From Candidatus Poribacteria bacterium (GTDB taxonomy: Bacteria > Poribacteria > WGA-4E > WGA-3G): a DNA stretch of 64,000 nucleotides. Under the pieces are notes generated by a model. The model was not told the origin of the DNA and ran no database searches. It saw only the letters and a list, made by a program, of their open reading frames with translations. The DNA is taken from assembly GCA_965205025.1 (NCBI GenBank), contig CBDBFU010000009.1:64001-128000 (forward strand). The letters are read 5' to 3'. Made by a program: the position numbers and the translations under genes. Position 1 is the stretch's first letter; each line of letters begins with the position of its first letter. Below are positions 2,930 through 21,232 of the stretch, one piece after another.

Positions 2930-5929
2930 CTACTTATTTTTCTCTCGGTTAGAACCTTTGAGAACTTCATCCCAATCCCACAGAAGAATTGCGCCATCTT
3001 GCCCTGTACTCATAAGTGTTTTGCCATCAGGTGAGAACACCAACGTCTTCACTGGCGCCGTGTGTCCATCAAGTATAGTCAGTTTGTCTCCTGTTTCCGT
3101 GTCCCATAGCTTAATTCCACCATAATTAAGTCCCGCAACAAGGATGCGATTATCTGGTGAAAATACAAACACTTCAACAATAAACGTTTTGGCACCATGG
3201 GACACTTCCTTAAAAGTGATCTGTTCCTTAATCTCAATCAAACGGATTTGTTTATGAGTTGCCACAACAAGCAAATTGCCATTTGGCGAGAATGCCAATG
3301 TTTTAATACTTTCCTTATAAAGGATGCCACTGTTATCAGTTTTGCCACTGAATACCGGTTCCTCTCCCGTAAAGAGAAGTGCTAACGGAATTCCAGTTTT
3401 CGCATCCCACATCTGCACTTTTCCGTCCTTGGTTCCACTAACAAGTTTTTTGCCGTCTGGCGAAAAAACTAAAGTGCTGATTGTAGACTTAAACTTGCGC
3501 TTGTGCTTGCGCTTGCGCTTAACGTTCTGATATGAGGGGGATATATCAGGGAGAGATATATCAGAAATCTCACCTGTCTCTGTATTCCATAGACGAATCT
3601 TACCAGAATTGCTGAATGCCACCGTTTTTCCATCAGGTGAAAAAGCCACGGGTGAAAAAAATCCTTTTTTCGCAGCCAAAGTCTGCAACTGGCGTCCCGT
3701 CCTAACATTACTCAGACGAACCAGCGGCTCATCCCACTTTATAGGGGCATCTGGGAAGGCTCTATTACCTTTTTCACGAAAACTGACGAGCTTTGTCCCA
3801 TCAGGTGAAAACGTTGAAAACGATGATAACCCATGTTGCCGTCTTTCTAGGTAGAAATCGGTTGTTTGCAATGCATTCGAACCTGTTTTTTGTGATGTTT
3901 TCACATCCCAAAGGCTAATTACCTGATCATAAGCGACACTCGCAAGCGTGGTGTTATCTTTAAAGAAAGTTACTGCTTCCACCTCCATTGTGTGTCCGGT
4001 GATGCGTGTGGGTAATAGATTCCCATTTTTGATATTCCAAAATCGGACTGTGCCCATTGTAGTTGCACCGGCTAGTATGCGATTATCTGGTGAAAACGTT
4101 AAAGCAATGATGCCGCCGGCATGACCTGTGAAAGTGGTGATAGGCTCACCAGTGGCGACATCCCACAATTGCACTGTTTGCTCTGTCTTACGTCTCCCTC
4201 CGCAGGCAAGCATTTTTCCATCCGATGAGAATGCTAACACGTCGACCTTCTTCGCGTGTTTGTCAAGGAGAATAGATTCGTTGCTGTTGGTATCCCATAA
4301 TTGTAATGTGAATGTTTCATCATTATTTTCACCTGCACTCGCGAGACGTGTGCCATCAGGTGAAAATTCCAAGGCTAAAAGAGATGTGTTTCCCTTGAGT
4401 GTAAACAGTATTTTGCCGGGTATTTCTCCGGTCGTTGTGTCCCGCAACTCAATCTCAGTTCCCATTCCAACTGCAAATTTATCATGTGTGAGCGCATAGT
4501 ATCTATGATCAACGATCGTCGGTGTCTGATCTTCCGTAATACGCTTCAACATTCTTTTACCGGTTTCAACATCCAGCCGGAGGAAAATGGTTCCCCACAC
4601 GTCATCCAAACCAAAAAGTGTTTTGCCATCTGCAGAGAACCGCAATACTGAGGCATGCGGAAAAAGACGAGGAGTGAGTTGCATTTTCTGACCGGTAGCT
4701 ACTTCCCACAACTGGAGTCCCACTGCAAACAACCGGTTTCCCTTTCTGTGAGAACCTCCAATACTGCCTGCAAGGAAGTGGCCGTCTGGAGAAAATGCGA
4801 TGGATTCGTACTTACCGGGGAACATGGATACTTCTTTACTCGTTTTCGCATCATAAAGCCACAAACCGATATCGCTGCCTACCGCGAGTAGCGTGCCATC
4901 TGGTGAGAATTGCATGACATTAATTCCACCCTTGCCTAAACGCGCCTTTGCCTTTTCAGGCAATTCCCATTTTGTCCAATCTTTCACAATTTCATCCCCT
5001 TGTGCCTCTGCAACTGCTGCAGAAGCATCATTCGGTTGCTGTTCAGGGTTATTGTGTTTATTCAATGCATTGACATTTTCTATTTGCATCCGCACATCAG
5101 GTTTGGATTCTAAGTTCGCAACAACAGGTGCGTCAATGATCTCAACTGCCATCTCCGAGGTAGCATCTAAACTATAGGGTTTCTGAAAACGTGCCAGGTA
5201 TCGGTGATTTCCAAAACCGAGCATGAGTAACACGACTACTAACGTGGAAGCAGCTACTGCCCATGGGACTAACGGTTTACTACCAGACGGTTTTACGGGT
5301 TTGGTCCGCGAAATCTCACGCATGATATTGTCAGTAAGATTCGGAGTGATTTTGAAATTGTCTAAAGCCTCTCTTATGACCGGTTCTTCTTTCTGTAAAC
5401 GCTGTTGCGCGCGGTGAAGTCGACTTTTAACGGTATTGGCAGAAACACCTAAAAACGTTCCAATCTCTTTACATGACATATCTCCAAAATAGTGAAGTGT
5501 CATGACAGTCCGTTCACTTTCCTTAAGTTTTGAAAGCAGTTTTTCGACAACAATACGCTGGGTTTCTACCGAGGAGCGTTTGTTTTCTGTAGCAACATAT
5601 TCCGAATAAGTTGATTCTTCAGGTTGTGTGCTATCAATCTTCTCTTGCAGTTGGGTTCGGATGTTTTTATTACGTAACCATGTATTGCAAAGATTTGAAG
5701 CAATTACATACAACCATCCAGCAAATAGATGTGGTTTCTTCAAAGTTCTGAGTTGCTGATATGCCCTCAGAAATGTATCCTGCGTAAGTTCTTCAGCAAA
5801 ATGAAAATCCCCAATTTTCTTCCACACAAGGGCATGAACCTGTTTTTGGTATTTTTCAACAAGCTCCGAGAATGCATTATCATCACCTTCGAGACTGCGG
5901 TGAATCAGGTGTGTATCATTGTTTATCAT
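2930..5929 (-). CDS. ECF sigma-70 factor-TM-WD40 repeat protein (999 aa)
   Basis: sigma2 (AEELTQDTFLRAY..FAGWLYVIA), sigma4, hydrophobic helix (WAVAASTLVVVLLMLGFG), many FSPDG..LWD WD40 repeats. Confidence 0.93.
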   Translation of the reverse strand: MINNDTHLIHRSLEGDDNAFSELVEKYQKQVHALVWKKIGDFHFAEELTQDTFLRAYQQLRTLKKPHLFAGWLYVIASNLCNTWLRNKNIRTQLQEKIDSTQPEESTYSEYVATENKRSSVETQRIVVEKLLSKLKESERTVMTLHYFGDMSCKEIGTFLGVSANTVKSRLHRAQQRLQKEEPVIREALDNFKITPNLTDNIMREISRTKPVKPSGSKPLVPWAVAASTLVVVLLMLGFGNHRYLARFQKPYSLDATSEMAVEIIDAPVVANLESKPDVRMQIENVNALNKHNNPEQQPNDASAAVAEAQGDEIVKDWTKWELPEKAKARLGKGGINVMQFSPDGTLLAVGSDIGLWLYDAKTSKEVSMFPGKYESIAFSPDGHFLAGSIGGSHRKGNRLFAVGLQLWEVATGQKMQLTPRLFPHASVLRFSADGKTLFGLDDVWGTIFLRLDVETGKRMLKRITEDQTPTIVDHRYYALTHDKFAVGMGTEIELRDTTTGEIPGKILFTLKGNTSLLALEFSPDGTRLASAGENNDETFTLQLWDTNSNESILLDKHAKKVDVLAFSSDGKMLACGGRRKTEQTVQLWDVATGEPITTFTGHAGGIIALTFSPDNRILAGATTMGTVRFWNIKNGNLLPTRITGHTMEVEAVTFFKDNTTLASVAYDQVISLWDVKTSQKTGSNALQTTDFYLERRQHGLSSFSTFSPDGTKLVSFREKGNRAFPDAPIKWDEPLVRLSNVRTGRQLQTLAAKKGFFSPVAFSPDGKTVAFSNSGKIRLWNTETGEISDISLPDISPSYQNVKRKRKHKRKFKSTISTLVFSPDGKKLVSGTKDGKVQMWDAKTGIPLALLFTGEEPVFSGKTDNSGILYKESIKTLAFSPNGNLLVVATHKQIRLIEIKEQITFKEVSHGAKTFIVEVFVFSPDNRILVAGLNYGGIKLWDTETGDKLTILDGHTAPVKTLVFSPDGKTLMSTGQDGAILLWDWDEVLKGSNREKNK

Positions 5930-6056: not shown

Positions 6057-6827
6057 TTACGTATCCAAAGGCACTACATCAGCATATACATAAGTTGGTG
6101 CGGTGTTGGTGCTGGAATGTATCTTGTCATTTTTCTCTTTTGATGTCGTTTCAATATCTCTCTGGACTATTCTACCGGGTTTAGCAGCAACCGGTGAACT
6201 AAACATAGGACCATCAACAACACATGTATGGAATTCACCGTTTTCACCAAGTGGGTCCACACCATCCGGCAAATCTGCGAGAAGGTCTGCATCAAACCAT
6301 CGTCCAGCAAAGTCTGCGGGTACTTTCGTAGGGTTGAGGGCGGTAATAATAGCGCGTAAACCAGAGGATATCATCTTTTGTGCAAGTTCGGTTGTGTCTA
6401 ATCCCCAAACAGGAAAAATCGGTGTGAAACCTGTCCCCTTCAGTTTGTCCTCTCGGTAAGCACGGATCTCTTCCAAGAATAGATCACCAAATGCAAAATG
6501 TGTTGCTGTTAAATCTGCTGGTAATTCTTCTACATCTGAAAGGAATTCACGCATTGCATCTTCATATATTGCATTAGAGCAAGGATACGGAATGGGTATC
6601 TCGTATAAAGGCACACCGAGCTTTTCAGCTTGTTGTTTTAATACCCAAACTGGAGTTGAGTGAATAGATACACGGTCAAATGTCTTGGTTACGGTGGTAA
6701 AGATGCCACGTACATCGTATATATCGGGTTGCTGTCGTAATGTATGTAACCCCCATGCAGAATCTTTACCTGAAGACCAGGAGACCAATACAGGTGTTGG
6801 GTTTATTTTGTCAGTTTCTTTTTTCAT
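6057..6827 (-). CDS. PP-loop adenine nucleotide alpha-hydrolase, Dph6/MJ0570-like ATP-binding protein
   Basis: SWSSGKDS PP-loop, FGDLFL, DPLGENGEFHT motifs; start uncertain (ORF extends to 6893). Confidence 0.85.
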   Translation of the reverse strand: MKKETDKINPTPVLVSWSSGKDSAWGLHTLRQQPDIYDVRGIFTTVTKTFDRVSIHSTPVWVLKQQAEKLGVPLYEIPIPYPCSNAIYEDAMREFLSDVEELPADLTATHFAFGDLFLEEIRAYREDKLKGTGFTPIFPVWGLDTTELAQKMISSGLRAIITALNPTKVPADFAGRWFDADLLADLPDGVDPLGENGEFHTCVVDGPMFSSPVAAKPGRIVQRDIETTSKEKNDKIHSSTNTAPTYVYADVVPLDT

Positions 6828-6906
6828 ATTGATTATATAAAGTAATATCTTTGAACACCTTATGGTAGAGTTGTTAGAAAACCACTCTACCATAGGGTAG
6901 AAGTAA

Positions 6907-7470
6907 TTATAATGCCAAAAAGTTACCTAATAGACTCTTTCCGGCAGTTGTTAAAATGGATTCTGGATGAAACTGCACACCCCAAATGGGTAGTGTCTTA
7001 TGACGAATACCCATAATTTCATCCTGATCTGTCCATGCTGTAATCTCAAGACAATCTGGTAATGTCTCTTTTTTTACAATGAGAGAATGATAGCGCGTTG
7101 CTTCAAAGGGATTTTCCAATCCTTCAAACAGATCTGTGTCTTTGTGATAAATCATGGATGTTTTCCCGTGCATAAGACGATCGGCACGCACAACTTCACC
7201 CCCAAAGGTATCCCCGATGCATTGATGTCCAAGACAAACCCCTAAGATCGGAACTTTACCAGCGAAATGTCTTATAGCATCGTTTGATATACCTGCCTCT
7301 TTTGGTGTGCATGGACCGGGAGATATTACAATCCTTTCTGGTGCCAATGCGTCCAATTCCTTTATACCTATCTTTCGACTACGATGAACTTCTAATTCAG
7401 CCCCGAGTTCACCGAAATATTGTACTAAGTTATAGGTAAATGAGTCGTAGTTGTCAATCATTAAAACCAT
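6907..7470 (-). CDS. trpG: anthranilate synthase component II / glutamine amidotransferase
   Basis: [28 protein letters not shown]; adjacent to trpE. Confidence 0.9.
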
Positions 7471-7473
7471 CTT

Positions 7474-8985
7474 TTATCTCCTATGATGTAACAAGCCTTG
7501 TTGTGCCATTTCAATAGCAGTGAGCATTGCCCATGCTTTACTGACGGTTTCATAATACTCATTTTCAGGCATGGAATCCGAAACGACACCACCACCTGCT
7601 TGCACGTATGCAGTACCATCTTTAATAACCGCAGTTCGAATGGTTATTGCCGTATCCGCACTACCTGAAAAACTGAAATAACCGACTGTTCCACCATAGG
7701 GACCCCTTCGTGTCGGTTCCAATTCTTCTATGATTTCCATAGCACGTATTTTAGGGGCACCAGAGAGTGTACCGGCGGGTAGACACGCTCGAATAACATC
7801 AAAAGCAGTAAGATTTTCACGCAAGCGTCCGACAACATGAGAAACGATATGCATCACATGTGAGAATCTTTCAACTATCATCAGATCGGTGACCTCAACG
7901 GAGTGATACTCACACACGCGCCCGAGGTCGTTTCTACCTAAATCCACCAGCATCACATGTTCCGCACGTTCCTTTGGATCTGAAATGAGTTCTTTTTCCA
8001 ATTCACGATCCTCATCATCGGTTTTGCCACGCGGACGTGTTCCGGCAATCGGAACTGTCTGGACAAGTCCATTTTCCACCCGTACCATCATTTCGGGTGA
8101 TGCACCAACTATCTCAAAACTATCATACTTCAGATAATACATATAAGGAGATGGATTTACAACTCGTAATGCACGATAGATATCAAAAGAATCCACTGAA
8201 ACAGGACGACTGAATCGTTGTGAAGGCACAACTTGTATTATGTCACCTGCAGCGATGTATTCTTTTGCACGTCGTACAACCGCCTCGTAATCTGATTTTG
8301 TGAAATTTGATGGCGGATCAGGAATAGTATCAACATCACTATCTGATCTATCGTCTAAATTCCTTACTGAAAGCACCTTTGAAGCAGATGTAAGTTTTTC
8401 TACCAACGAATCGATTTTAGCAATCGCATCTGTATACGCTGTATCTACATTTCCATCAATATGTGCATTGGCAACAACTTTAATCTGATGGTTAACATGA
8501 TCGAATATAAGGATCGTATCGGCAATCATGAAAAAGCAATCCGGCACCTGCAGTTCATCTTCGTTTGTATCAGGTAATTCTTCCACGAAACGCACCATAT
8601 CATAGGTCATATAACCAACTGCCCCACCATGGAATTCTGGTAGCCCATCAACACTGACGGGTTGATATTGCTGCATCAATTCTTCAAGTGCACTCAGCGG
8701 ATCATCGTACTCTTTGACTACTTTTTCTCTTTTTCCAAAGTCCTCTATGGTAACCTCGTTTCCTTTGCTTTGGAAGAGAATAGAGGGTTGGCTGCCCAAA
8801 AAAGAATATCGAGCGACTTTCTCACCACCTTCAACACTTTCCAAAAGGAACGCGAATTCATCAGGCATTAATTTGTAAAAAGCAGATACTGGTGTCTCCA
8901 TATCTGCCAAGATAGGTCGATAAACAGGTATCGTGTTCCCCTGTTTTGCTTTTACCTGAAATTCTTGTAATGTAGGATAATACAT
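7474..8985 (-). CDS. trpE: anthranilate synthase component I
   Basis: LLES Trp-feedback motif, NPSPYM, PIAGTRPRG, EHVMLVDLGRND, GTLSGAPK. Confidence 0.95.
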   Translation of the reverse strand: MYYPTLQEFQVKAKQGNTIPVYRPILADMETPVSAFYKLMPDEFAFLLESVEGGEKVARYSFLGSQPSILFQSKGNEVTIEDFGKREKVVKEYDDPLSALEELMQQYQPVSVDGLPEFHGGAVGYMTYDMVRFVEELPDTNEDELQVPDCFFMIADTILIFDHVNHQIKVVANAHIDGNVDTAYTDAIAKIDSLVEKLTSASKVLSVRNLDDRSDSDVDTIPDPPSNFTKSDYEAVVRRAKEYIAAGDIIQVVPSQRFSRPVSVDSFDIYRALRVVNPSPYMYYLKYDSFEIVGASPEMMVRVENGLVQTVPIAGTRPRGKTDDEDRELEKELISDPKERAEHVMLVDLGRNDLGRVCEYHSVEVTDLMIVERFSHVMHIVSHVVGRLRENLTAFDVIRACLPAGTLSGAPKIRAMEIIEELEPTRRGPYGGTVGYFSFSGSADTAITIRTAVIKDGTAYVQAGGGVVSDSMPENEYYETVSKAWAMLTAIEMAQQGLLHHRR

Positions 8986-9124
8986 GAGTGATTCCTCTTC
9001 ATATCATAAGCATCTAAGTTATGTACTCTTAATAACTAATAGTTGTTATACAATTCTTTTCTATGGCCACCACTACTTATTCTATTGATCAGATGCTATG
9101 CTATGAGTTGGATAACATTCAATA

Positions 9125-9505
9125 CTAATAAACAGCATCTGCATCGAAAATCTTATCTCCAACAATAGTAGTTGACTCTCCATTGGGGGAGACTTCCCTA
9201 AAAAAGCAGGACCGATACCCTTGATGGCATGCTGCAACCTTCTGTTCAACCTTAAACAGCAGGGCATCACCATCACAATCAACTGCCATTGACTTGACAG
9301 TTTGGGTGTGTCCTGAAGTCTCCCCCTTTATCCACAACTTCTGGCGGGAACGACTCCAAAAACATACTCGACCTGTTGACAAAGTCTGTTTGATCGCTTC
9401 TTCATTCATATATCCAAGCATTAGTATTTCATTGTTTGTACTATCTTGGATAATAGCTGCGACCAAACCATCACTATCATATTTCAGTTCAGATAGAATC
9501 TTCAT
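9125..9505 (-). CDS. hisI: phosphoribosyl-AMP cyclohydrolase
   Basis: [32 protein letters not shown]. Confidence 0.95.
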
Positions 9506-9526
9506 AATTCCTCCTTCAAACAGTTT

Positions 9527-9571
9527 AAAAACAAAAAACCTTATGCCACCGAGGTAGTGTGTGCATAAGGT
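9527..9571 (-). terminator. attenuator terminator upstream of hisI
   Basis: Minus strand ACCTTATGC...GCATAAGGT hairpin followed by TTTTTGTTTTT, about 20 nt before the hisI start. Confidence 0.8.
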
Positions 9572-9609
9572 CTACAAAATCAATCAATATTAGAATATAT
9601 AAAAATCTG

Positions 9610-9705
9610 TTAACGCGCACACCCCTCCATACTGAAATTGGATCGCCACCAATGCCAATGATCCGTTATAGTATTTAGGTTGGTGTGTGAACTAACAAAT
9701 ATCAT
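9610..9705 (-). CDS. attenuator leader peptide MIFVSSHTNLNTITDHWHWWRSNFSMEGCAR
   Basis: 31-codon ORF with CAT TGG CAT TGG TGG CGA cluster, upstream of the terminator and hisI-trpE-trpG. Confidence 0.8.
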   Translation of the reverse strand: MIFVSSHTNLNTITDHWHWWRSNFSMEGCAR

Positions 9706-9963
9706 CTTTGCAAAAAATATAAGAAATTTATGTATTATTCCAAATTTATTTATATAATAACATATATGAAATGGGTTGTCAAATTAAATAATAAAGTAAA
9801 ATTTTCAAATACTTATTAGGGGATAGTAAGCATCAAGGATTCTTGACATACACAGGTTTTTGGAGTAAAATTGACACGGTAAACCCATAATATAAATGAC
9901 ATTGTAAGCATATAGAATTAATAACACGATATATTGAGATAACATTATTAGAAGAGGAAATGA

Positions 9964-11355
9964 ATGGAAACAAGAATTGAGAAGGATAGTTTAGGGGATG
10001 TAGAAGTTCCAGAGTCAGCATATTGGGGTCCACAGACACAACGTGCATTTCTTAATTTCGATATAGGTAATGAACAATTTCCACCAATATTCATCCAAGC
10101 ACTTGCAATAATTAAACATTCCGCGGCAACAGTAAATGCAGAACTCGGTGGTATCACTGAAGAAATAGCAGATTTTATCAGTCGAGCAGCAGATGAAGTT
10201 GCTGAAGGTGGTCTGGCAGACCAGTTCCCACTTCGAATTTGGCAAACAGGAAGTGGAACACAGACACACATGAATATAAATGAAGTGATCGCCAATAGAG
10301 CAAATGAATTGGCGGGGGGAAGCCGTGGAATGAAATCGCCTGTACATCCCAATGACCATGTGAATCGTTCTCAATCAACCAATGATGTATTTCCAACTGC
10401 AATTCACATTGCAGTGGTTACACAGATTCTTAAACGACTACTACCGGCTGTTCAATTGTTACAGGAAGCATTAGAGGAGAAATCACAGAAGTATTCAGAC
10501 ATAGTAAAGACAGGCAGGACACATCTGATGGATGCAACACCTCTAACATTAGGGCAAGTCTTCAGTGGATATGTTCAACAGGTGAAACATGCACAGGAAG
10601 CAATTAAGAGTACTTTATCCCATCTGTATGAACTGCCTATTGGTGGTACAGCAGTAGGAACTGGTTTAAATTCACATCCTGATTATGCTTCCTCTGTTGC
10701 TCAGCGTATTGCGGAACGTACAGGTCACCCGTTCATCACAGCACCAAATAAGTTTGAGGCATTGGGAAGTCGAGATGCTCTTGTATCTGCAAGTGGAGCA
10801 TTGAAACGTCTTGCATGTGCATTGTATAAAATTGCTAACGACATACGGTTGCTCGGAAGTGGTCCACGGTGTGGAATTGGTGAATTGATATTACCCGAGA
10901 ATGAACCGGGAAGTTCAATTATGCCGGGTAAAGTGAATCCAACTCAGTGTGAAGCTATGACAATGGTATGTGCACAGGTAATTGGAAATGATACTACAAT
11001 CTCGCTGGCTGGTAGTGCCGGTAATTTTGAATTGAATGTATTTATGCCTGTGATAGCCTTTAATAGTCTTCAATCTATTCGATTGTTATCGGATGCGTGT
11101 GATGCTTTCAGAGAACATTGTGTTGTCGGCATTGAGGCAAACGAACCAGTGATTGCTGGGTATCTTGAAGCATCTTTGATGTTGGTTACTGCGTTAACAC
11201 CACGTATAGGTTATGATGCCGCAGCTAAGTTGGCACAGAAGGCACATCGGGAAGGATCAACATTACGTGAAGTCGCTCTTGAGGACGGTGTATTGACAGG
11301 AGAGGAATTCGATTCATTGGTGATTCCAGGTGATATGGTAACACCCAATCTATAA
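9964..11355 (+). CDS. fumC: fumarate hydratase class II
   Basis: [34 protein letters not shown]. Confidence 0.97.
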
Positions 11356-11505: not shown

Positions 11506-14500
11506 TTATTCTTCAAGTTGTATGATCTCTTCAGGTACCTGGATTTCATCAAGATCTGATTCTTCAATACCATCTTTGGAAACTTCCAGCTCCAGCCAAC
11601 TTGAGAATCCAGTACCTGCCGGAATTAATCGTCCAAGGATGACGTTTTCCTTCAGACCTGTAAGGTAATCGGTCTGTCCTTCAACAGCAGCATCTGTAAG
11701 AACTTTCGTTGACTGCTGGAAACTTGCAGCAGAAATGAAACTATCAGTACTTAAAGCTGCTTTACTAATACTCTGTAGGAGTGGTTCACCTGTTGCAGGT
11801 GTACCACCTTCATCTGCTACACGTCTATTTTCAGCATGGAACCTACGTCGACTAACCTCATCGTTAGCATAAAATCTGGTATCTCCAATCGTAAGAATAC
11901 GGATTTTCTGTAGCATTTGTCGGACAATTACTTCGACGTGTTTATCATTGATGATATTCTTACCGTAGACAGTCTGAACTTCATCAACAAGATATGTCCA
12001 TACTGCCTCTTCACCTTCAAGTGAAACTCCGTTGATATTTGCTCTACCGATACTAAGTATATCGTGTGGATTCAGATATCCATCCGTTAAGGGTTGTCCA
12101 GCTTCGACAATGTCACCAGCATCAACACGTCGTTTTTCATCGGGGATCGAGTAAAGGCGACTTTTGGCTGCATCATCAACAATCCGATACTGTGGAACAC
12201 CAGCTTTTTGACCCGTTAGCTGCAATTCCCCAGCAATCTCGGCGATTTCAGCTGCATCTTCACGTTTTGGACGTCGTGCTTCAAAAAGCTCAGTCACCCG
12301 TGGTATCCCTACGACAATGTCAAGGTTCGTAGTTTTCTCGTGTAATTCTGCTAACCCGTGTTGTGCATTCACCTTTTCCCCATCTTCAACAGAAACAGAA
12401 TATCCGGCTGGGATAAGGTGTGAAACGCGTCCTCCACCTTCAACGTCAATATCAATCCTGAAGGTTTCAATCAACTCATCAACATCAACACCACCATACT
12501 GTTCTATGGCTCTCTCAAATTCCCAATCGTTTAACTCTTGGCCAACAGTAAGTGTACAGTTTGGATGAATTACCTTTGTAATTTCATAGGTGTTTTTTGA
12601 GGTTAGTGCTGATTTAGCCTTGTAATCAGCATCACTTAAAATTTCATCTTTAGTAACCTCAGATCCAGAGTCGTTAACTGCCGTGACTTTATACACGCGA
12701 TCAGTATCAAAACCCTTATAAAGACGTTGTGCCTTCTTGTATTCATTCTCATCAATTTCCTGTTGTGGGACAAGTGCACAATCTTCATGATGAACAGCAA
12801 GGATCAAATAAAAACGTTGGATCTCAGGCAATGGTGTTTCTGTGTCTCTATGGTGTTTGACGAGAGCTTTGTGATCTGTCTCAGTCAATACTTCCTCTGT
12901 ATCAGCTCCTTCAGGGGTATACTTGTAAAGTTTCTCAAAATCAAAGCCTTTATAGCTTCTTCTGAATCGATTGGATTCAGACTGAGTAATAACCTCATCA
13001 ACAGCTACAGGAAAATCAGGATGATGAATAGCAGAAACTTTATAAAGCCGTTCAACCTCAAATGCTCCTTCGTTCTTAGTAATGTTAACTTCAAATCCAG
13101 GAAATTCCTTAAGAACAGCCTTTTTCTCATTCTCGGTGAGGAGCGTATCGGTTTCTAACTTACAATTTGGATGATACACAGAGGTTATACGATATTTAAG
13201 ACGTTCAGCAGAGAATCCACCGAATTTATCTTTGAGGGAATCATAGTTGTCTTGTTCAATCAATTCACCAGGTTTGAGCGGACATTCACTATGTGATATT
13301 TCTGATACACGATACAGTTCATTACTTAAAAGCGATACTTCAAACGCCTTTTCATTTAGGAATCTATCTCTATATTCCGACTCAGATAATTGTTGTCCGA
13401 CAGTCAGATCAACCCCATCAGATACTTCTGTAACTGTGCGTACTGGATCCCCGAGTTCAAGATGATATTGACTTTCCTCTTCAGGGGTTAACAAGTGTCC
13501 TTCCTTAAATGGACAACTTGTATGGGTAATAGTCTGAATTTCATATCTCATCTCAGCGTTAAGGGTGTTCTGTTTCCGTAAGTATTCACTTTCGGTGAGG
13601 ATATCACCCGATGTGGTTCGATATACCCATTTTCCATCGAAAGGTCGAATCTCAGTTTTCCATTTTTCAGCTTCAGTCTCAGTCACTAATGTACCCTCCT
13701 TCAGAGAACTTTCAGGGTGCATTACCCGTATCACAGGATACTGAGGTTCGGAACAACGGAATAGAGCAAATCGATGTAAACAGGCATTATACTCTTGATC
13801 TGTAAGATACTGTCCTTCCTGTAAGGCAAATCCTTCCCCACTATTAGCCTCAATTACATCTGGACGATTTACGGCTTCAATTACCCGTGTAATGGGTACC
13901 ACCTCAAAACCAGGATAACGCTCCTTGTTCTCCTCATGCTGCTTAATAGTAAGTAGTTCATTCGGTTGGAGTTTACAGTCAGGATGTTCAACTGTCTTCA
14001 CTTTATAGTTTGCTTGGTCAAGATGATCAGCAACTTTTTGAACAATCCAGAGTCCACCTTCTTCACGGACTGTCCTCCCAGGTATAAAATCACGAAAGCG
14101 AACAACACCAGATGCTTTAGCAGGGATCTTCCGGGCAAGACGTTCACTCACATCTTCAACCACACCACCCGTATGAAATGTTCGCATTGTTAACTGTGTT
14201 CCTGGTTCCCCGATTGATTGTGCAGCAATAATTCCGATTGCTTCACCAACATTAACCATTTGTCCTGATGTTAAATCAGAACCGTAACAATGAGCACAAG
14301 ATCCCTTTTCGGTCTCACAGGTAAGTATAGATCTAACACGAACACTGGAGACTTCAGCATCTTCTATTATTTGCGCCATTTGAGGTGTAATCATTGTATC
14401 ACTTTCGACAAGAACTTCATCAGTAGTAGGATGAACTACATCCTCAACTGCCACACGACCACTGATTTTAAATCCTATTGATCCGGCACTCGTAGTGAAT

Positions 14501-17109
14501 TTTTGGATACCATGAACCGTTCCGCAATTTTCCTCTGTTATCATTACATCTTGTGCCACATCAACGAGTTTACGGGTGAGATAACCAGATGCAGCGGTTT
14601 TCATTGCTGTATCAACTAACCCTTTACGGGAGCCGTAGGTAGAAGTAAAGTAATCCAGTACATCTAATCCTTCTCTATAAGAAGATTCAATCGGAGTTGA
14701 CAGGATTTCACCGCTCTGCTTGGATTTCAATCCAACAATAGCACTGATTTGAATAAATGGATTCTTACGTGCTCTGGCACCACTATCCGCCATAAGATGC
14801 ACTGGACTAAATCCTTCCACATCCTTACCTTGTTCAACCAGATAACTTTCCGTGGCAGGAAGTTGACCAAATAAATCCTCCTCAATCTTTATAGTAGCAT
14901 CGAACCAAATACGAATTTTTTCATTCTCTAATTCTTCTGGTTCGAGGTTCTCCTGTTTATAGAGTTTATCAATAGCATTCCGGGCATCAGTCAGTATCTC
15001 GGTCTTATGATCAGGTACAAGGTAATCCTTAATACCTGGTGAAATTCCGCTTCGAGTTGCATACTCAAAACTAAGTTTCTGTAACCGATCTAATAATGAA
15101 ACAGTTTCTGAAGTTCCAAGTTCGTTAAAACAACGTTGAACAAGATCCGATAACCTTCTACTCCGTGCTTCCTCATTAAAGAATGGTATTTCAAGTCCGG
15201 TGATTTCATCTTTCCATTTTAGTGATGCTGTACCATTCGTATGGGGGAGTACTTCGTTAAATATGACACGACCAACAGTTGTTAATATAGGTTCACTATT
15301 TCCTTCAAAGAAGAGAAGAATTGAATCGTGTAATTTTATCGTTCCACATCCATGTGCATGTGTCACCTCATCAACAGATGTAAACCGTCGTTTTGCCCAT
15401 TCCTCGTTTTCTAATGAGGAGAAGATTTTCTTTGATTCAGAACCATTAGTAAGTTCCGTATAAGCAGAATGTAGTAATTCTGCACGCTCAAGATGTTCTG
15501 GAAGTTGTTTGGTAAGAAAACTTGCCCCCAATATCATATCAAGTTCAGGTACTGTAATAGGTTCACCATGGGAAGGTTTCAGTATATTACTACTACTAAG
15601 TAACAACATCTTTGCTTCAGTTCGTGCTTCAATTGACAGTGGTACATGTACAGCCATCTGATCACCATCAAAATCAGCATTAAAAGCTTTACAAACAAGA
15701 GGAGGAATCCGGATAGATTTGCCTTCAACAAGAACAGGCATGAATGCCTGAATACCCAGACGATGGAGTGTTGGAGGACGGTTCAGTAACACAGGATGAT
15801 CCGCAATAACTTCTTCTAATGCTTCCCACACCGGGGAGTCGGGGGTGACGTGTTCAGTCATGTTCTTCCCACGTTTAATAGTTTGAACATGTCCGTCTGC
15901 TAAGAGTTTCTCAATAATGAAGGGTTTAAAGAGTTCTACTGCCATTAACTTTGGAATACCACATTGATGCAACTCTAATTCAGGTCCAACAACAATAACA
16001 CTTCTACCAGAATAGTCAACACGTTTCCCAAGTAAGTTCTGACGGAATCGACCAACTTTACCTTTAAGTATGTCCGATAGTGACTTGAGGGCACGCTTAC
16101 CAGGACCAGTGACGCGACGACCATGTCTCCCATTATCCAAAAACGCATCAACGGATTCTTGTAACATCCGTTTCTCATTCCGTAGAATAACCTCCGGTGA
16201 ACGTAAGTCAATCAGTTTTTGTAATCGGTTATTCCTATTAATCACACGACGATACAAGTCATTGAGATCACTTGTAGCGAATCTTCCACCTTCGAGTGAA
16301 ACTAATGGGCGTAGGTCAGGACTTATGACAGGTAGTACGTCAAGAATCATCCACTCAGGCTGCATCTCTGCTTTATCAAAACCTGCTACCATTTTTAATT
16401 GTTTTGAGAGTTTTACTTTCTTCTGATGGCTTGAGGTCTCTTCAATCTCTTGAGTAAATTTCTCTACATCCTCAGGTAAGTCAATCTTCTGAAGAAGTTC
16501 TTGAATTGCCTCTGCTCCTGTAGCTGCTTTGAATGTATCAGGATGTTTTTGCATTTTAGCATTCATCTCTTGTTCTGTGAGAATATCTTTATGTTCCAAT
16601 TCACAACTATCATCCATAACTTCTGTTACGATAAATGCTTCAAAGTATAAAACACGTTCAACTTGGCGAGAAGCAAGTTCAAGGAATGTCCCAAGTCGTG
16701 AAGGAATACCTTTGAAAAACCATATATGTGAAACTGGGGTGGCAAGTTTGATATAACCAAGCCGTTCTCGTCGAACTTGTGATTTAGTCACCTCAACCCC
16801 ACATTGATCACAAATTAGTCCTTTATGCTTAATTCGCTTGTATTTACCACAACTACACTCAAAATCTTTTTGTGGACCGAAGGTCGCTTCACAAAATAAA
16901 CCTTGGTGTTCTGGTCGGAAACTTCGATAATTAATTGTCTCTGCCTTCTTAATTTCACCACAATCACATGTACCTTTTTCAGGACAAGACCATGTTTCAC
17001 TTGCTGGATTCCGTCGTTTACAGGATGTGCGTTTTGCCCAATCTCTAATTGTTTCGGGTGATGCGATGCTTATAGAGATACGATTAAAACGGTTTTCTTT
17101 GTCTGCCAT
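11506..17109 (-). CDS. rpoC: RNA polymerase beta' subunit (1867 aa, large trigger-loop insertion)
   Basis: NADFDGD, Zn-finger CSCGKYK..CDQC, GEPGTQLTMRTFH, GLKENVILGRLIPAGTG. Confidence 0.98.
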   Translation of the reverse strand: MADKENRFNRISISIASPETIRDWAKRTSCKRRNPASETWSCPEKGTCDCGEIKKAETINYRSFRPEHQGLFCEATFGPQKDFECSCGKYKRIKHKGLICDQCGVEVTKSQVRRERLGYIKLATPVSHIWFFKGIPSRLGTFLELASRQVERVLYFEAFIVTEVMDDSCELEHKDILTEQEMNAKMQKHPDTFKAATGAEAIQELLQKIDLPEDVEKFTQEIEETSSHQKKVKLSKQLKMVAGFDKAEMQPEWMILDVLPVISPDLRPLVSLEGGRFATSDLNDLYRRVINRNNRLQKLIDLRSPEVILRNEKRMLQESVDAFLDNGRHGRRVTGPGKRALKSLSDILKGKVGRFRQNLLGKRVDYSGRSVIVVGPELELHQCGIPKLMAVELFKPFIIEKLLADGHVQTIKRGKNMTEHVTPDSPVWEALEEVIADHPVLLNRPPTLHRLGIQAFMPVLVEGKSIRIPPLVCKAFNADFDGDQMAVHVPLSIEARTEAKMLLLSSSNILKPSHGEPITVPELDMILGASFLTKQLPEHLERAELLHSAYTELTNGSESKKIFSSLENEEWAKRRFTSVDEVTHAHGCGTIKLHDSILLFFEGNSEPILTTVGRVIFNEVLPHTNGTASLKWKDEITGLEIPFFNEEARSRRLSDLVQRCFNELGTSETVSLLDRLQKLSFEYATRSGISPGIKDYLVPDHKTEILTDARNAIDKLYKQENLEPEELENEKIRIWFDATIKIEEDLFGQLPATESYLVEQGKDVEGFSPVHLMADSGARARKNPFIQISAIVGLKSKQSGEILSTPIESSYREGLDVLDYFTSTYGSRKGLVDTAMKTAASGYLTRKLVDVAQDVMITEENCGTVHGIQKFTTSAGSIGFKISGRVAVEDVVHPTTDEVLVESDTMITPQMAQIIEDAEVSSVRVRSILTCETEKGSCAHCYGSDLTSGQMVNVGEAIGIIAAQSIGEPGTQLTMRTFHTGGVVEDVSERLARKIPAKASGVVRFRDFIPGRTVREEGGLWIVQKVADHLDQANYKVKTVEHPDCKLQPNELLTIKQHEENKERYPGFEVVPITRVIEAVNRPDVIEANSGEGFALQEGQYLTDQEYNACLHRFALFRCSEPQYPVIRVMHPESSLKEGTLVTETEAEKWKTEIRPFDGKWVYRTTSGDILTESEYLRKQNTLNAEMRYEIQTITHTSCPFKEGHLLTPEEESQYHLELGDPVRTVTEVSDGVDLTVGQQLSESEYRDRFLNEKAFEVSLLSNELYRVSEISHSECPLKPGELIEQDNYDSLKDKFGGFSAERLKYRITSVYHPNCKLETDTLLTENEKKAVLKEFPGFEVNITKNEGAFEVERLYKVSAIHHPDFPVAVDEVITQSESNRFRRSYKGFDFEKLYKYTPEGADTEEVLTETDHKALVKHHRDTETPLPEIQRFYLILAVHHEDCALVPQQEIDENEYKKAQRLYKGFDTDRVYKVTAVNDSGSEVTKDEILSDADYKAKSALTSKNTYEITKVIHPNCTLTVGQELNDWEFERAIEQYGGVDVDELIETFRIDIDVEGGGRVSHLIPAGYSVSVEDGEKVNAQHGLAELHEKTTNLDIVVGIPRVTELFEARRPKREDAAEIAEIAGELQLTGQKAGVPQYRIVDDAAKSRLYSIPDEKRRVDAGDIVEAGQPLTDGYLNPHDILSIGRANINGVSLEGEEAVWTYLVDEVQTVYGKNIINDKHVEVIVRQMLQKIRILTIGDTRFYANDEVSRRRFHAENRRVADEGGTPATGEPLLQSISKAALSTDSFISAASFQQSTKVLTDAAVEGQTDYLTGLKENVILGRLIPAGTGFSSWLELEVSKDGIEESDLDEIQVPEEIIQLEE

Positions 17110-17209
17110 TCTTATGCTCCTTTAATGGTTGGGGGTGCAATGGTTATCGGTACTCAATATTATAGAATCAGTTTAAAAAGAAAAATTAACATCTACTGAT
17201 TACCGATAA

Positions 17210-20200: not shown

Positions 20201-21232
20201 AATACATGCCGATGCGGCTTCTCGTGTCGGGGCATCACCTGGGCGTAGGGTGCGAAAAATTTCAAGTAATGCACCTTCTTGCAATGTACCTCCACCATAC
20301 GCTTTGACAGTGTCACGGGACAATGTATTTCGTAAATACCGTAGTTCTTGTTCGTCGACTTCTACCAATACTTCAACCTCTGAGATTTTAGCATCGATGA
20401 GACGATCATATTCAATCTCAGACAACTTAGTGTTAGCCTCAAGTAATACTTCACCCGAATTTGAATCAACGATGGGTTCAACGATTACACGGCCTATAAC
20501 ATCTGTAGTCAACTTAACATTTTCTGTATCACCAAATAGTTTGAGGATTTCTGCATCAGTTTCCCATCCAAGCGCTCTTAAAAGTACTGTGGCTAAGATT
20601 TTCTTTTTTCTATCTAAACGTACGTGAATACAATCTTTTGAATCAAATTCAAACTCTACCCAAGCACCACGATAAGGTATAATCTGCCCTGTTGGAAGTT
20701 TTTGTACACTGGGAGCAGATTTATCAAGAAATATAACACCTGGTGATCGATGTAATTGATTTACGATAACACGTTCGGATCCATTGATTATAAATGTACC
20801 GTTCTCAGTCATCAATGGAATATCCCCAAGATACACTTCTGATTCAGTAATATCTAAAACCCGTGTTTGACCAGTGTCTTCATCTTTTTCTCGTTCAACA
20901 CACATCAGCTTGGCTTGAAGCCTAACTTGATAATTTAATCCACGTGCTTGACAATCAGATAGATCATGCGTGGGTGGACTGAGTGCGTAACTAACGAACT
21001 CAAGACTCGTTGTATCTTTAAAATCATAAATTGGAAAAACTTCTTTGAAGAGTGCTTGCAACCCTTTTGTTTCACGTTCACTTTCTGCAACATCACGCTG
21101 CAAAAATGCAGCATAGGAGCGTTTTTGGGTTTCAATTAAATCAGGTAGGTCAAGAATTGATGGGGTTTTGGCAAAGGAGATGCGCTTACGGAGAGCAGCC
21201 GGACTTCCATTATTTTTAGTAGTAGCTGGCAT
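17210..21232 (-). CDS. rpoB: RNA polymerase beta subunit
   Basis: SQLSQFM, GDKMAGRYGNKG, GQRLGEMEVWALEAYGAA. Confidence 0.98.
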   Translation of the reverse strand: MPATTKNNGSPAALRKRISFAKTPSILDLPDLIETQKRSYAAFLQRDVAESERETKGLQALFKEVFPIYDFKDTTSLEFVSYALSPPTHDLSDCQARGLNYQVRLQAKLMCVEREKDEDTGQTRVLDITESEVYLGDIPLMTENGTFIINGSERVIVNQLHRSPGVIFLDKSAPSVQKLPTGQIIPYRGAWVEFEFDSKDCIHVRLDRKKKILATVLLRALGWETDAEILKLFGDTENVKLTTDVIGRVIVEPIVDSNSGEVLLEANTKLSEIEYDRLIDAKISEVEVLVEVDEQELRYLRNTLSRDTVKAYGGGTLQEGALLEIFRTLRPGDAPTREAASACIERLFFDGARYDLGTVGRYKLNSQLGDLEVYQEESEGLPDEENRVLRREDIAATLQHLMHIRNGHKEVDDLDHLGNRRVRVIGELLENQFRIAMLQMRRAAREKLSTTADAQLKNPKNLVNPKPLMSALREFFGSNQLSQFMQQINPLDELTHKRRISAIGPGGLHRDRATAAVRDVHRTHYGRVCPLETPEGPSIGLIVSLATFARVNPYGFLETPYRTVSNGKITQNVEYLTADAEDKFHIAPADAIPARKKDVPVRSRKGEEVLERDLKEIDYVGIAPQQIVGVSAALVPFLEHEDANRALMGANHQRQAVPLISPEAPWVGTGMEHRAARDANAMVIAHRGGVVSSVDAEEILIRTGQALHVEEGEHAFSEMGYDVYKLKNFKRSNSGTCIHQRPRVNIGDVVETGDVIADGTATEGGELALGRNILCAYMPWGGHNFEDSILISESLIKQDTFTSIHIEEFEVAARQTKMGDEEITRDIPNMSARSLAQLDDEGIIRIGSVVGTGSILVGKISPKGESETGPEEKLLRAIFGEKSKEVKDASAYTRPGVEGVVIDVKVFSRQATPNSDRTALRQDSLRKQIEQTWEEQRQQISDRLTEEMRDSLLNKELAYPTTILYDDEPEDTEKSDSPQQLEAGDILTRDFLEGLSQKQLETLQITDTETVDYIKSLQELAVGREKAYTDEKEEALEKLTSGEELKPGVLKLVKVYVASRRPISIGDKMAGRYGNKGVVAKILPEEDMPYLPDGTPVDIVLNPLGVPSRMNVGQILEIHLGLACKELGYYVASPVFDGATEAEVFKMLEDTELLESVKKTGKSVLYDGRTGDAFGQEVTVGYVYFLKLNHLVADKMHARSTGPYSLVTQQPLGGKAQHGGQRLGEMEVWALEAYGAAHTLQEMLTIKSDDVKGRTKIYESIVKGQSPLKPGTPESFNVLVRELQSLGLNVELSEGNPSELDSIQAALHESGLPILHTVDTMEPVDDEPPLKLTWDTDDTE

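What the first reader, a model, noticed from the sequence alone, without database searches (positions are those of the whole stretch)
9527..9705. Possible dual His/Trp-sensing attenuator controlling a hybrid hisI-trpE-trpG operon
Seen: unannotated leader MIFVSSHTNLNTITD-H-W-H-W-W-R-SNFSMEGCAR* (9705->9610) and a terminator ACCTTATGC..GCATAAGGT with U-tract just before hisI. The leader 3' segment GAGGGGTGTGCGC is largely complementary to GCACACACTACCTC in the terminator, giving an antiterminator. Known: trpL leaders use tandem Trp (WWR in E. coli) and hisL leaders use His runs, each normally for its own operon. Inference: interleaved His and Trp codons ahead of a His gene plus Trp genes could let one attenuator respond to either amino acid, coupling two PRPP-consuming pathways.
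Basis: partly seen in the sequence, partly recalled or inferred. Interest (0 to 1): 0.8.

Follow-up and report, generated by a model that had tools for sequence, protein, structure and literature searches.

The report
Trp/His leader-peptide attenuator of hisI-trpEG
A tiny reading frame rich in tryptophan and histidine codons, followed by a terminator, sits in front of a mixed histidine/tryptophan operon in a sponge-associated Poribacteria genome and most likely turns the operon on when either amino acid runs short.

Summary
On the minus strand lie a strong promoter (9782-9754), a 31-codon leader ORF (9705-9610), an intrinsic terminator with U-tract (9571-9527), then hisI-trpE-trpG.

The leader's 3' segment can pair either with an upstream segment or with the terminator's 5' arm. 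This is the classic 1:2 / 2:3 / 3:4 attenuator layout.

A covariance model built from 44 relatives finds the element in 136 of 151 Poribacteria genomes, and once in this genome. Rfam has no match for it.

In 62 distinct order-level leaders the central His codon of W-H-W-W is kept in 61. The three Trp codons are kept in 60, 61 and 61. Deeper lineages that keep hisI first in the operon mostly keep His next to Trp. Two outgroup leaders without hisI read W-R-W-W-W and W-C-W-W-W. Exceptions exist in both directions.

hisI is the only PRA-CH gene found in the assembly and lies wholly behind this terminator, so a histidine response makes functional sense.

Verdict: certainly a leader-peptide attenuator. 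Dual Trp/His sensing is plausible (about 0.55) but untested. The PRPP-coupling idea has no support.

This is a new variant of a known kind. Earlier notes of this scan describe the same element in another Poribacteria genome.

The parts
9754..9782 (-). Promoter: TTGACA (9782-9777), 17-nt spacer, TG-extended TATTAT (9759-9754). The transcript start is inferred near 9747.
   Evidence: 11 of 12 consensus matches, TG before the -10; sequence. The promoter scan found no more sites than in shuffles, so this is a consensus match only.
9610..9705 (-). Leader ORF, 31 codons plus stop (MIFVSSHTNLNTITDHWHWWRSNFSMEGCAR*). The Shine-Dalgarno is weak (GCAAAG before the ATG).
   Evidence: Homologous ORFs are present in 30 of 30 relatives' loci.
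9677..9690 (-). Segment 1 (UCACACACCAACCU, codons 6-10), the anti-antiterminator strand that pairs with segment 2.
   Evidence: Minimum-free-energy fold; leader-alone fold -29.9 kcal/mol.
9646..9660 (-). Regulatory codon block H-W-H-W-W (CAT TGG CAT TGG TGG).
   Evidence: Conservation in 62 distinct leaders: W 60, H 61, W 61, W 61.
9614..9628 (-). Segment 2 (GGAGGGGUGUGCGCG, codons 26-30, ending just before the stop codon). It pairs with segment 1 or with segment 3.
   Evidence: The nucleotides are conserved while the reading frame of the peptide tail differs between genera.
9551..9564 (-). Segment 3 (GCACACACUACCUC): upper 5' arm and loop of the terminator, and the antiterminator partner of segment 2.
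   Evidence: L001 truncated fold, -18.8 kcal/mol.
9527..9571 (-). Intrinsic terminator: hairpin 9571-9538 (segments 3:4) and U-tract 9538-9527.
   Evidence: -17.2 kcal/mol; 99% of cells paired, two UA-to-GC compensatory pairs.
9125..9505 (-). hisI (phosphoribosyl-AMP cyclohydrolase, 126 aa), first structural gene, with a strong Shine-Dalgarno (GAAGGAGG).
   Evidence: NF000768, 172.6 bits against a cut-off of 126. It is the only PRA-CH in the genome.
7474..8985 (-). trpE (anthranilate synthase component I, 503 aa).
   Evidence: TIGR00564, 589 bits against a cut-off of 517.7. It is the only copy found by tblastn.
6907..7470 (-). trpG (glutamine amidotransferase component II, 187 aa).
   Evidence: TIGR00566, 276.9 bits.
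6057..6893 (-). Dph6-like ATP pyrophosphatase gene (PF01902), 13 nt after trpG. Probably co-transcribed; role unknown.

Best explanation
This is a ribosome-mediated (leader-peptide) transcription attenuator that controls hisI-trpE-trpG and probably the next gene. Transcription starts near 9747 and the 31-codon leader is translated.

- If the ribosome runs to the stop codon (9612-9610), it covers segment 2. Segments 3 and 4 then form the terminator and RNA polymerase stops at about 9530.
- If nobody translates, segment 1 pairs with segment 2, and the terminator also forms.
- If the ribosome stalls in the H-W-H-W-W block (9660-9646), segment 1 lies behind it and segment 2 lies just in front of it, 18 nt past the last Trp codon. 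Segment 2 therefore pairs with segment 3 as soon as that is made. The upper terminator stem is lost and transcription reads into hisI.

Trp codons are the main sensor. The conserved His codons sit in the same stalling window. An earlier one, codon 7, sits inside segment 1. These most likely make the switch bivalent, so that it reads through when either Trp-tRNA or His-tRNA is poorly charged. That suits an operon whose first gene is the genome's only hisI.

Shown here: the anatomy, the conservation, terminator covariation, and the link between gene content and codons. Inferred: translation of the leader, stalling, and the response to either amino acid.
For: **Anatomy and spacing**

**Conservation**
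- hisI is followed by trpE in 30 of 30 relatives' loci, and a W-H-W-W leader is present in 30 of 30.
- Covariance model R1 matches in 136 of 151 genomes of the phylum sample, and once in this genome at window 9532-9719.

**Structure**
- The terminator is 99.0% paired against 90.5% in shuffles, with 2 pairs changed on both sides in 10 sequences each.
- In 44 of 44 leaders the fold without segment 4 pairs segment 2 with segment 3, and is more stable than with a shuffled segment 2. The z-scores run from -0.08 to -3.18, so each is modest.
- Duplex energy between cognate segments 2 and 3 is -15.1 / -15.3 kcal/mol, against -12.5 / -12.7 for cross-family swaps.

**Codons**
- In 62 distinct leaders the central His is kept in 61 (CAT 60, CAC 1), while the Trp codons are kept in 60, 61 and 61. 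Flanking positions take 6 to 8 different residues. Every leader has 1 to 4 His codons in the 8-codon window.
- Genome-wide usage is His 2.2% and Trp 1.5%.
- Deeper lineages with hisI first in the operon read HHHWCWWH, HWHWGW, WRHWHWR (2 genomes), RWWWHWRGHR and HRHWRR (2 genomes).
- Outgroup leaders without hisI read FWRWWWR and NWCWWWR.
- Second-site copies of the same RNA scaffold, in front of unrelated genes, have lost the WHWW block. The block is therefore not needed for the fold.

**Function**
- Only one PRA-CH gene is found in the 95.5%-complete assembly. Only 22 nt separate the U-tract from the hisI start.
- The same genome uses a His-codon leader (HHH-x-x-H) before hisZ-hisG-hisS, kept in 17 of 19 loci of the genus.

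**Theory**
Against: - No expression or termination data. The RNA-library runs are contigs from relatives and cannot show ends or levels.
- The leader's Shine-Dalgarno in this genome is weak.
- Counter-examples to the link between His codons and hisI:
  - Of 5 leaders without hisI, 2 still carry a His two codons after a Trp (RRWCHISW, SRWRHID).
  - With hisI present, one family reads DHICWWPWW, with His three codons before the first Trp (2 sequences).
  - One genus reads CERWDS, with no His and a single Trp.
  - One leader has the central His changed to Arg (HWRWWH).
  - Two genomes of one genus have no leader at all.
- The no-hisI set amounts to only about 2 or 3 independent lineages, and relatives share ancestry, so the contrast is weak statistically.
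- CAT is used in 60 of 61 central His codons against 70% genome-wide. This could point to a nucleotide-level or codon-speed constraint rather than to histidine sensing.
- In this family part of the CAU can pair in a small local hairpin (AUUGG with CCAAU).
Confidence: 0.55

Rival explanations
1. An ordinary tryptophan-only attenuator. The Trp codons do the sensing. The His codons are inherited passengers, and hisI relies on basal read-through.
For: - Trp codons are the deepest shared feature. They are present in all 5 leaders without hisI and in nearly all with it.
- Some hisI-containing operons have leaders with no His near the Trp codons: CERWDS, and DHICWWPWW in 2 sequences.
- Some no-hisI leaders keep a His (2 of 5).
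Against: - The central His is kept as strictly as each Trp codon (61 of 62), while its neighbours vary. It persists across orders with a change of codon, CAT or CAC.
- The two outgroup leaders without hisI have Arg or Cys at the matching place (the alignment is by eye).
- hisI is the sole copy and lies fully behind the terminator.
Confidence: 0.3
2. The His codons are selected to tune Trp sensing, not to sense histidine. Possible ways are slow wobble-decoded CAU codons, a W-H-W-W nascent-peptide effect that slows the ribosome in the control region, or a local RNA hairpin.
For: - CAT is used far more than genome usage predicts: 60 of 61 at the centre and 46 of 46 at position -1, against 70% genome-wide.
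- Part of the CAU can pair in a small hairpin (AUUGG with CCAAU) in this family.
- The choice among synonymous codons affects sensitivity (PMC1183508, abstract).
Against: - The local hairpin partner is absent in the sister families that keep the same 12 nucleotides.
- CAC replaces CAT in some lineages.
- This reading does not explain why leaders without hisI in the outgroup lack His.
Confidence: 0.1
3. Not ribosome-mediated. The conserved leader RNA would be bound by a protein, a tRNA or a metabolite (TRAP-like, T-box-like or a riboswitch), and the ORF would be incidental.
For: - The weak Shine-Dalgarno before the leader ATG in this genome.
- Nucleotide-level conservation of much of the leader.
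Against: - No Rfam family matches at E up to 10, including T-box, Trp_leader and His_leader.
- No TRAP protein family match in the genome.
- The ORF with in-frame Trp and His codons and a stop placed next to segment 2 is kept across families, even where the nucleotide sequence of its N-terminal half is not alignable.
Confidence: 0.05

Closest known systems
E. coli / Salmonella trp operon attenuator (trpL; Rfam RF00513 Trp_leader)
   Same: A short leader ORF with clustered Trp codons followed by Arg. Three alternative hairpins (1:2, 2:3, 3:4), with an intrinsic terminator just before the first structural gene. A stop codon placed so that a terminating ribosome blocks segment 2.
   Different: - No match to the Rfam model.
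- The Trp codons lie in the loop between segments 1 and 2, not inside segment 1.
- The leader is 31 codons long.
- The first gene is hisI, not trpE.
- His codons are interleaved with the Trp codons.
- The organism belongs to the uncultured phylum Poribacteria (relatives' record titles).
his operon attenuator (hisL; Rfam RF00514 His_leader)
   Same: His codons in a leader ORF upstream of a histidine-biosynthesis gene, with a terminator/antiterminator switch.
   Different: - No match to the Rfam model.
- There are 2 to 4 scattered His codons rather than a run. That enterobacterial hisL has seven in a row is recalled, not tested.
- This genome has a separate His-run leader (HHH-x-x-H) before hisZ-hisG-hisS.
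Multivalent attenuators of enterobacteria (thrL with Thr and Ile codons; ilvL / ivbL with Ile, Leu and Val codons). Recalled textbook knowledge, not from a call.
   Same: One leader carries regulatory codons for more than one amino acid, so starvation for any of them relieves termination.
   Different: In those cases the amino acids share a pathway or enzymes. Here the two pathways are unrelated and are joined only by gene order (hisI placed before trpEG).
Sinorhizobium meliloti trpE(G) attenuator trpL / rnTrpL (PMC6614838, abstract seen in the search listing)
   Same: Only the anthranilate-synthase operon carries the attenuator, and the other trp operons do not. Here no WW leader was seen within 700 nt upstream of trpD-trpC or trpA.
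   Different: No hisI and no His codons are reported there. A trans-acting role of the released leader RNA is known there and is untested here.
Earlier notes of this scan: e1-3085119 (another Poribacteria genome) and e1-365611 (Verrucomicrobia hisF-hisI-x-trpE-trpG)
   Same: Both describe a Trp/His-codon leader in front of a mixed his/trp operon. The first is evidently the same element in a relative.
   Different: These are AI notes, not publications. The Verrucomicrobia case could not be confirmed with the loci held here.

Membership tests
Ribosome-mediated (leader-peptide) transcription attenuators of amino-acid operons | A short translatable ORF in the 5' leader between the promoter and the first structural gene | tested here: met
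   31-codon ORF at 9705-9610 downstream of the promoter at 9782-9754. Homologous ORFs in 30 of 30 relatives. The Shine-Dalgarno is weak in this genome.
Ribosome-mediated (leader-peptide) transcription attenuators of amino-acid operons | Clustered codons for the amino acid(s) made by the operon | tested here: met
   H-W-H-W-W at 9660-9646. Kept in 60 to 61 of 62 distinct leaders at each position. The operon encodes hisI, trpE and trpG.
Ribosome-mediated (leader-peptide) transcription attenuators of amino-acid operons | An intrinsic terminator directly upstream of the first structural gene | tested here: met
   Hairpin 9571-9538 (-17.2 kcal/mol) plus U-tract to 9527, 22 nt before hisI. 99% paired with 2 compensatory pairs.
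Ribosome-mediated (leader-peptide) transcription attenuators of amino-acid operons | Mutually exclusive antiterminator and anti-antiterminator, spaced to match ribosome positions | tested here: met
   Segment 2 (9628-9614) pairs with segment 1 (9690-9677) or with segment 3 (9564-9551). Segment 2 starts 18 nt after the last Trp codon and ends 1 nt before the stop codon. Segment 2:3 pairing is seen in 44 of 44 relatives' truncated folds.
Ribosome-mediated (leader-peptide) transcription attenuators of amino-acid operons | Read-through rises on starvation for the cognate amino acid and depends on leader translation | not testable with these tools
   Only contigs of RNA libraries were available.
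Rfam Trp_leader (RF00513) / His_leader (RF00514) | A match to the family covariance model | tested here: not met
   cmscan of window 9000-10200 at E up to 10 gave three unrelated weak hits only.
T-box leader | A match to the T-box model (specifier loop and T-box sequence) | tested here: not met
   No T-box hit.
TRAP-regulated trp leader (Bacillus type) | TRAP protein (Pfam PF02081) encoded in the genome | tested here: not met
   0 matches in the own genome; the control rang in Bacillus subtilis. The genome is 95.5% complete.
Multivalent attenuators (more than one amino acid sensed) | Regulatory codons for two or more amino acids inside the window where stalling favours the antiterminator | tested here: met
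   His and Trp codons alternate within 15 nt. There are 1 to 4 His codons in the 8-codon window in 62 of 62 leaders.
Multivalent attenuators (more than one amino acid sensed) | Derepression shown separately for each amino acid | not testable with these tools
   Needs reporter or in vitro assays.

The most novel reading that the evidence does not exclude
A cross-pathway bivalent attenuator. One leader peptide acts as an OR gate for two biosynthetically unrelated amino acids, Trp and His, because the genome's only hisI gene has been captured at the head of the trpEG operon. The His codons would be maintained by selection for as long as hisI stays there. In sister genera the same promoter-leader-terminator scaffold has been copied in front of ABC exporters and other genes with rewritten sensor codons, so the scaffold would be a reusable, re-programmable switch.
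Probability: 0.45. Interest if true: 0.7.

Novelty: new variant of a known kind. Interest (0 to 1): 0.55.

Why it matters
Leader-peptide attenuation is textbook biology, but it is documented mainly in Proteobacteria, Actinobacteria and some Firmicutes.

Three things would be added here.

- **A new phylum.** A well-conserved attenuator family with no Rfam match would be placed in an uncultured candidate phylum of sponge symbionts.
- **A natural experiment.** The sensor codons seem to track the gene content of the operon: His codons occur where hisI is the first gene, and mostly not where it is absent. If confirmed, this shows that a single attenuator can integrate two unrelated amino-acid signals. 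It also shows how regulatory codons evolve after a gene is captured.
- **Better annotation.** Covariance model R1 would let hisI-trpEG regulation be annotated in more than 130 genomes.

Two full-text searches returned no paper describing this element. One asked for 'leader peptide', 'attenuat', 'hisI' and 'trpE' together (0 papers). The other asked for at least two of 'Poribacteria', 'attenuat' and 'leader peptide' (none of the 10 listed papers was relevant). Most subscription-journal papers are not in that library.

Tried and rejected
- **Rfam scan** at a permissive threshold: no T-box, Trp_leader or His_leader. Those memberships are rejected.
- **TRAP**: absent.
- **Terminator consensus scan**: 0 sites. 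It missed the bulged hairpin, so the result is uninformative.
- **Folding with a masked 'ribosome footprint'**: the program kept segment 1:2 pairs spanning the ribosome, which is physically implausible. I discarded this and folded the 3' part alone.
- **RNAalifold on all 44 sequences**: it recovered the terminator and only a 5-bp antiterminator core. The two family groups are aligned 2 nt out of register in segment 2, so covariation of 2:3 was judged by duplex swaps instead. The difference there is modest.
- **Automatic leader caller**: it missed many known leaders, including this window's own, because of T-runs in the spacer.
- **RNA evidence**: the two RNA-library runs hold only 0.06-0.07 of the sampled words, as contigs 85-95% alike, that is, from relatives. 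One 599-nt contig (X1, record 8) covers 9092-9576 and runs on, bridging hisI and the terminator. DNA carry-over cannot be excluded, and no ends or levels can be read.
- **Other trp or his leaders in this genome.** No WW leader was seen within 700 nt upstream of trpD-trpC or trpA. No other convincing WW leader turned up genome-wide. A second TGGCATTGGTGG at C9:223137 looks coding from its flanking sequence as read by eye; it was not tested.
- **hisI-trpE adjacency outside Poribacteria.** It occurs in 5 of 63 other-phylum loci (L050, L058, L061, L076, L097). No W-H-W-type leader was seen there by a regex scan.
Inconclusive.
- **Literature.**
  - PMC1262725 (Actinobacteria attenuators): 0 occurrences of trpE, hisI or the codon terms.
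  - A search for 'arginine starvation' with trp attenuation found no paper holding that term.
  - The old report that Arg starvation partly relieves E. coli trp attenuation is therefore recalled only.

Full report
**What is there**

All features lie on the minus strand.
- A near-consensus promoter: TTGACA, 17 nt, TG-extended TATTAT, at 9782-9754.
- A 31-codon ORF from ATG 9705 to TAA 9612-9610, encoding MIFVSSHTNLNTITDHWHWWRSNFSMEGCAR.
- A hairpin ACCUUAUGC...GCAUAAGGU at 9571-9538, followed by UUUUUUGUUUUU down to 9527.
- The hisI start at 9505, with a strong Shine-Dalgarno.

The genes that follow are:
- hisI (PRA-CH; NF000768 above its cut-off);
- trpE (TIGR00564 above its cut-off);
- trpG;
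- after a 13-nt gap, a Dph6-like ATP pyrophosphatase gene.

**Which organism**

The window is contig 9 of a 5.66-Mb, 38% G+C, 95.5%-complete assembly. The nearest public relatives of its hisI are all titled Candidatus Poribacteria, uncultured sponge-associated bacteria.

**Alternative structures**

- In the free fold, the leader's 3' segment GGAGGGGUGUGCGCG (9628-9614, segment 2) pairs with UCACACACCAACCU (9690-9677, codons 6-10, segment 1).
- With the 3' arm of the terminator left out, segment 2 instead pairs with GC.CACACU.CCUC (9564-9551, segment 3). Segment 3 is the upper 5' arm and loop of the terminator. The pairing has 12 pairs and the truncated fold is -18.8 kcal/mol.
- The terminator hairpin alone is -17.2 kcal/mol, and the leader alone (1:2) is -29.9 kcal/mol.

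Spacing fits the classical model.
- Segment 2 begins 18 nt after the last Trp codon, just outside a ribosome stalled on the H-W-H-W-W block.
- It ends 1 nt before the stop codon, so a terminating ribosome covers it.

**Is it real?**

- hisI is followed by trpE in 30 of 30 loci from the genus and three sister families.
- A leader ORF with W-H-W-W was found in 28 of 30 by an ATG scan. The other two were found by inspection: one lay beyond my 450-nt limit because of an insertion, and one starts with GTG.
- I aligned 44 attenuators. The 9-bp terminator stem is paired in 99.0% of cells, against 90.5% in shuffles. Two pairs change on both sides (UA to GC) in 10 sequences each. This is probably one event, shared by two families.
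- Segment 2 changes with segment 3 between the family groups: GUGUGCGCG with GCACAC, against GUGUGCCU with AGGCAUAC. Cognate duplexes are about 2.5 kcal/mol better than swapped ones. This is a modest signal.
- A covariance model of the alignment matches 136 of 151 genomes sampled across the phylum:

| Family | Genomes with a match |
|---|---|
| f1 | 97 of 99 |
| f2 | 10 of 10 |
| f3 | 26 of 26 |
| f4 | 1 of 4 |
| f5 to f7 | 0 of 8 |
| f8 | 1 of 2 |
| f9 | 0 of 1 |

- It matches this genome exactly once, at window 9532-9719.
- Rfam has nothing for it, and the genome has no TRAP protein.

I take the leader-peptide attenuator as established as far as sequence analysis can go (about 0.9).

**The histidine question, within the order**

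I examined 66 non-duplicate loci. Four lack the block:
- one has it split by an insertion;
- one genus has a single Trp and no His;
- two genomes of another genus have no leader at all.

The other 62 are distinct sequences. Conservation by position is as follows.

| Position | Residues |
|---|---|
| W1 | Trp in 60, CGG in 2 |
| Central His | His in 61 (CAT 60, CAC 1), CGT in 1 |
| W2 | Trp in 61 |
| W3 | Trp in 61 |
| One before W1 | His in 46, eight different residues in all |
| One after W3 | Arg 32, His 17, Trp 7, others 6 |

So the central His is conserved exactly as well as each Trp codon while its neighbours drift. Every leader has 1 to 4 His codons in this 8-codon window. Genome-wide, His is 2.2% and Trp 1.5% of codons.

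**The histidine question, deeper in the phylum**

Where hisI is still the first gene, the leaders read:
- HHHWCWWH (family f7);
- HWHWGW, WRHWHWR (two genomes), RWWWHWRGHR with CAC codons, and HRHWRR (two genomes) (f5);
- FHHWC*, FHYWC* and QHFWRM (f4, one genus);
- DHICWWPWW (f6, two sequences).

No leader was found in one further genus.

Where trpE has no hisI in front (6 genomes), the picture is:
- FWRWWWR and NWCWWWR in the other class (f8, f9);
- KRWWYTSW, RRWCHISW and SRWRHID in one genus of f4;
- one genome has no leader, and there trpE directly follows an ORF that I read by eye as tryptophanyl-tRNA synthetase, without testing it.

Counting a His within two codons of a Trp, 10 of 12 deep leaders with hisI have one, against 2 of 5 without. 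The trend fits selection for His codons when hisI is in the operon. However, the no-hisI set is only two or three independent lineages, and exceptions occur in both directions.

**Is the block an RNA requirement?**

Many genomes of a sister genus carry a second copy of the same scaffold at another locus: promoter region, segments 1 and 2, spacer and terminator. I fetched eleven of these copies. The seven downstream ORFs that I scanned encode ABC exporters (3), DUF5916 proteins (2), an LD-carboxypeptidase and a sigma-54 activator. In these copies the W-H-W-W block is replaced, for example by FKRWHNKRP or FKPCPCGWF. The fold therefore does not need those 12 nucleotides. At the hisI-trpE locus they are kept for what they encode.

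**Functional logic**

- PRA-CH occurs once in this genome, both by tblastn and by the Pfam model.
- Only 22 nt lie between the U-tract and its start codon, which leaves no room for a separate promoter.
- If the switch answered to Trp alone, Trp-replete cells would choke histidine synthesis. His codons in the stalling window remove that conflict.
- The organism does use His-codon leaders. About 290 nt upstream of hisZ-hisG-hisS on contig 20 lies MKIILYIHHHSVHS* followed by a G+C stem and a U-run. An M...HHH-x-x-H leader is present in 17 of 19 loci of the genus.
[quoted passage not shown] With two or three codons each, both responses would be of the low-sensitivity kind seen in the E. coli trp attenuator.
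- A His-starved ribosome would also stall at His7 inside segment 1. By the same logic this should also free segment 2 for segment 3 (inference).

**Caveats**

- The leader's Shine-Dalgarno is weak in this genome. Relatives often have AGGA- or GGAA-like purine runs.
- CAT is strongly preferred over CAC, which might reflect codon speed or local pairing rather than His sensing.
- A weak promoter-like site lies in the 139-nt hisI-trpE spacer (9032-9003), and there is no terminator there. It could give trpEG some independent expression, but it does not change the dependence of hisI on the attenuator.
- RNA data were contigs from relatives only.

**Comparison with what is known, and novelty**

The element works like the enterobacterial trp attenuator and, if bivalent, like the multivalent thr and ilv attenuators (recalled textbook cases). 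It is not a member of any Rfam leader family.

As in Sinorhizobium meliloti, only the anthranilate-synthase operon carries the attenuator (PMC6614838, abstract as listed; for this genome).

Full-text searches found no paper on a hisI-trpE leader or on attenuation in Poribacteria. Most subscription-journal papers are not in that library.

Earlier notes of this scan already describe the same element in another Poribacteria genome (e1-3085119) and a similar Trp/His leader in Verrucomicrobia (e1-365611). I confirmed the first kind independently here and could not test the second.

**Verdict**

It is an attenuator (about 0.9). Dual Trp/His sensing is the best-supported reading (about 0.55) but remains an inference. 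PRPP coupling is unsupported. This is a new variant of a known kind, of moderate interest.

Noticed in passing
Outside the window: G000 contig 20, about 75,830-75,540 (locus L181/L182), upstream of hisZ-hisG-hisS: A classical His leader, MKIILYIHHHSVHS*, followed by a G+C stem and a U-run, precedes an operon of a HisZ-like regulatory subunit, short-form HisG and histidyl-tRNA synthetase. An M...HHH-x-x-H leader is present in 17 of 19 loci of the genus.
   Followed up: partly
Loci L201-L211 (sister-genus genomes and G013), second covariance-model hits: The whole promoter-leader-terminator scaffold is duplicated at other loci, with the W-H-W-W block rewritten. The seven downstream ORFs scanned encode ABC exporters, DUF5916 proteins, an LD-carboxypeptidase and a sigma-54 activator. 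The upstream flanks share a repeat, so the cassette may have been mobilised.
   Followed up: partly
L212 (G131:C1:4526500-4527700): A tandem duplication of the attenuator. The second leader starts with the first five codons of hisI fused to the leader's middle part, ending FQVASHYWHWWRF....
   Followed up: no
window 6057-6893 (-): A Dph6/MJ0570-like ATP pyrophosphatase gene (PF01902, 83 bits) lies 13 nt after trpG and is probably in the same transcript. Its link to Trp or His metabolism is unknown.
   Followed up: no
window 8986-9124 (-): The hisI-trpE spacer is 139 nt long. It has no terminator-like hairpin and one weak promoter-like site at 9032-9003. The spacer length varies from 24 to about 170 nt in relatives.
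   Followed up: partly
L004, L008, L009, L011, L029, L042 and others: In several relatives, 150-300 nt inserts sit between the terminator and hisI. The one read in full, in L004, carries an inverted GGCGAGGTT...AACCTCGCC-type repeat.
   Followed up: no
L164, L165 (G089, G117, genus g12): hisI-trpE is kept but there is no leader or attenuator. hisI directly follows another gene and a block of G+C-rich repeats.
   Followed up: no
L050, L058, L061, L076, L097: hisI is immediately followed by trpE in single loci titled Sumerlaeales, Actinomycetes, Planctomycetia, Tessaracoccus and Thermoanaerobaculaceae. The adjacency therefore recurs outside Poribacteria.
   Followed up: no
window 2930-5929 (-) and 11506-21241 (-): A 999-aa WD40-repeat protein lies downstream of the operon. 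Two giant ORFs (1867 and 1343 aa) lie beyond the divergent fumC gene (9964-11355, +).
   Followed up: no
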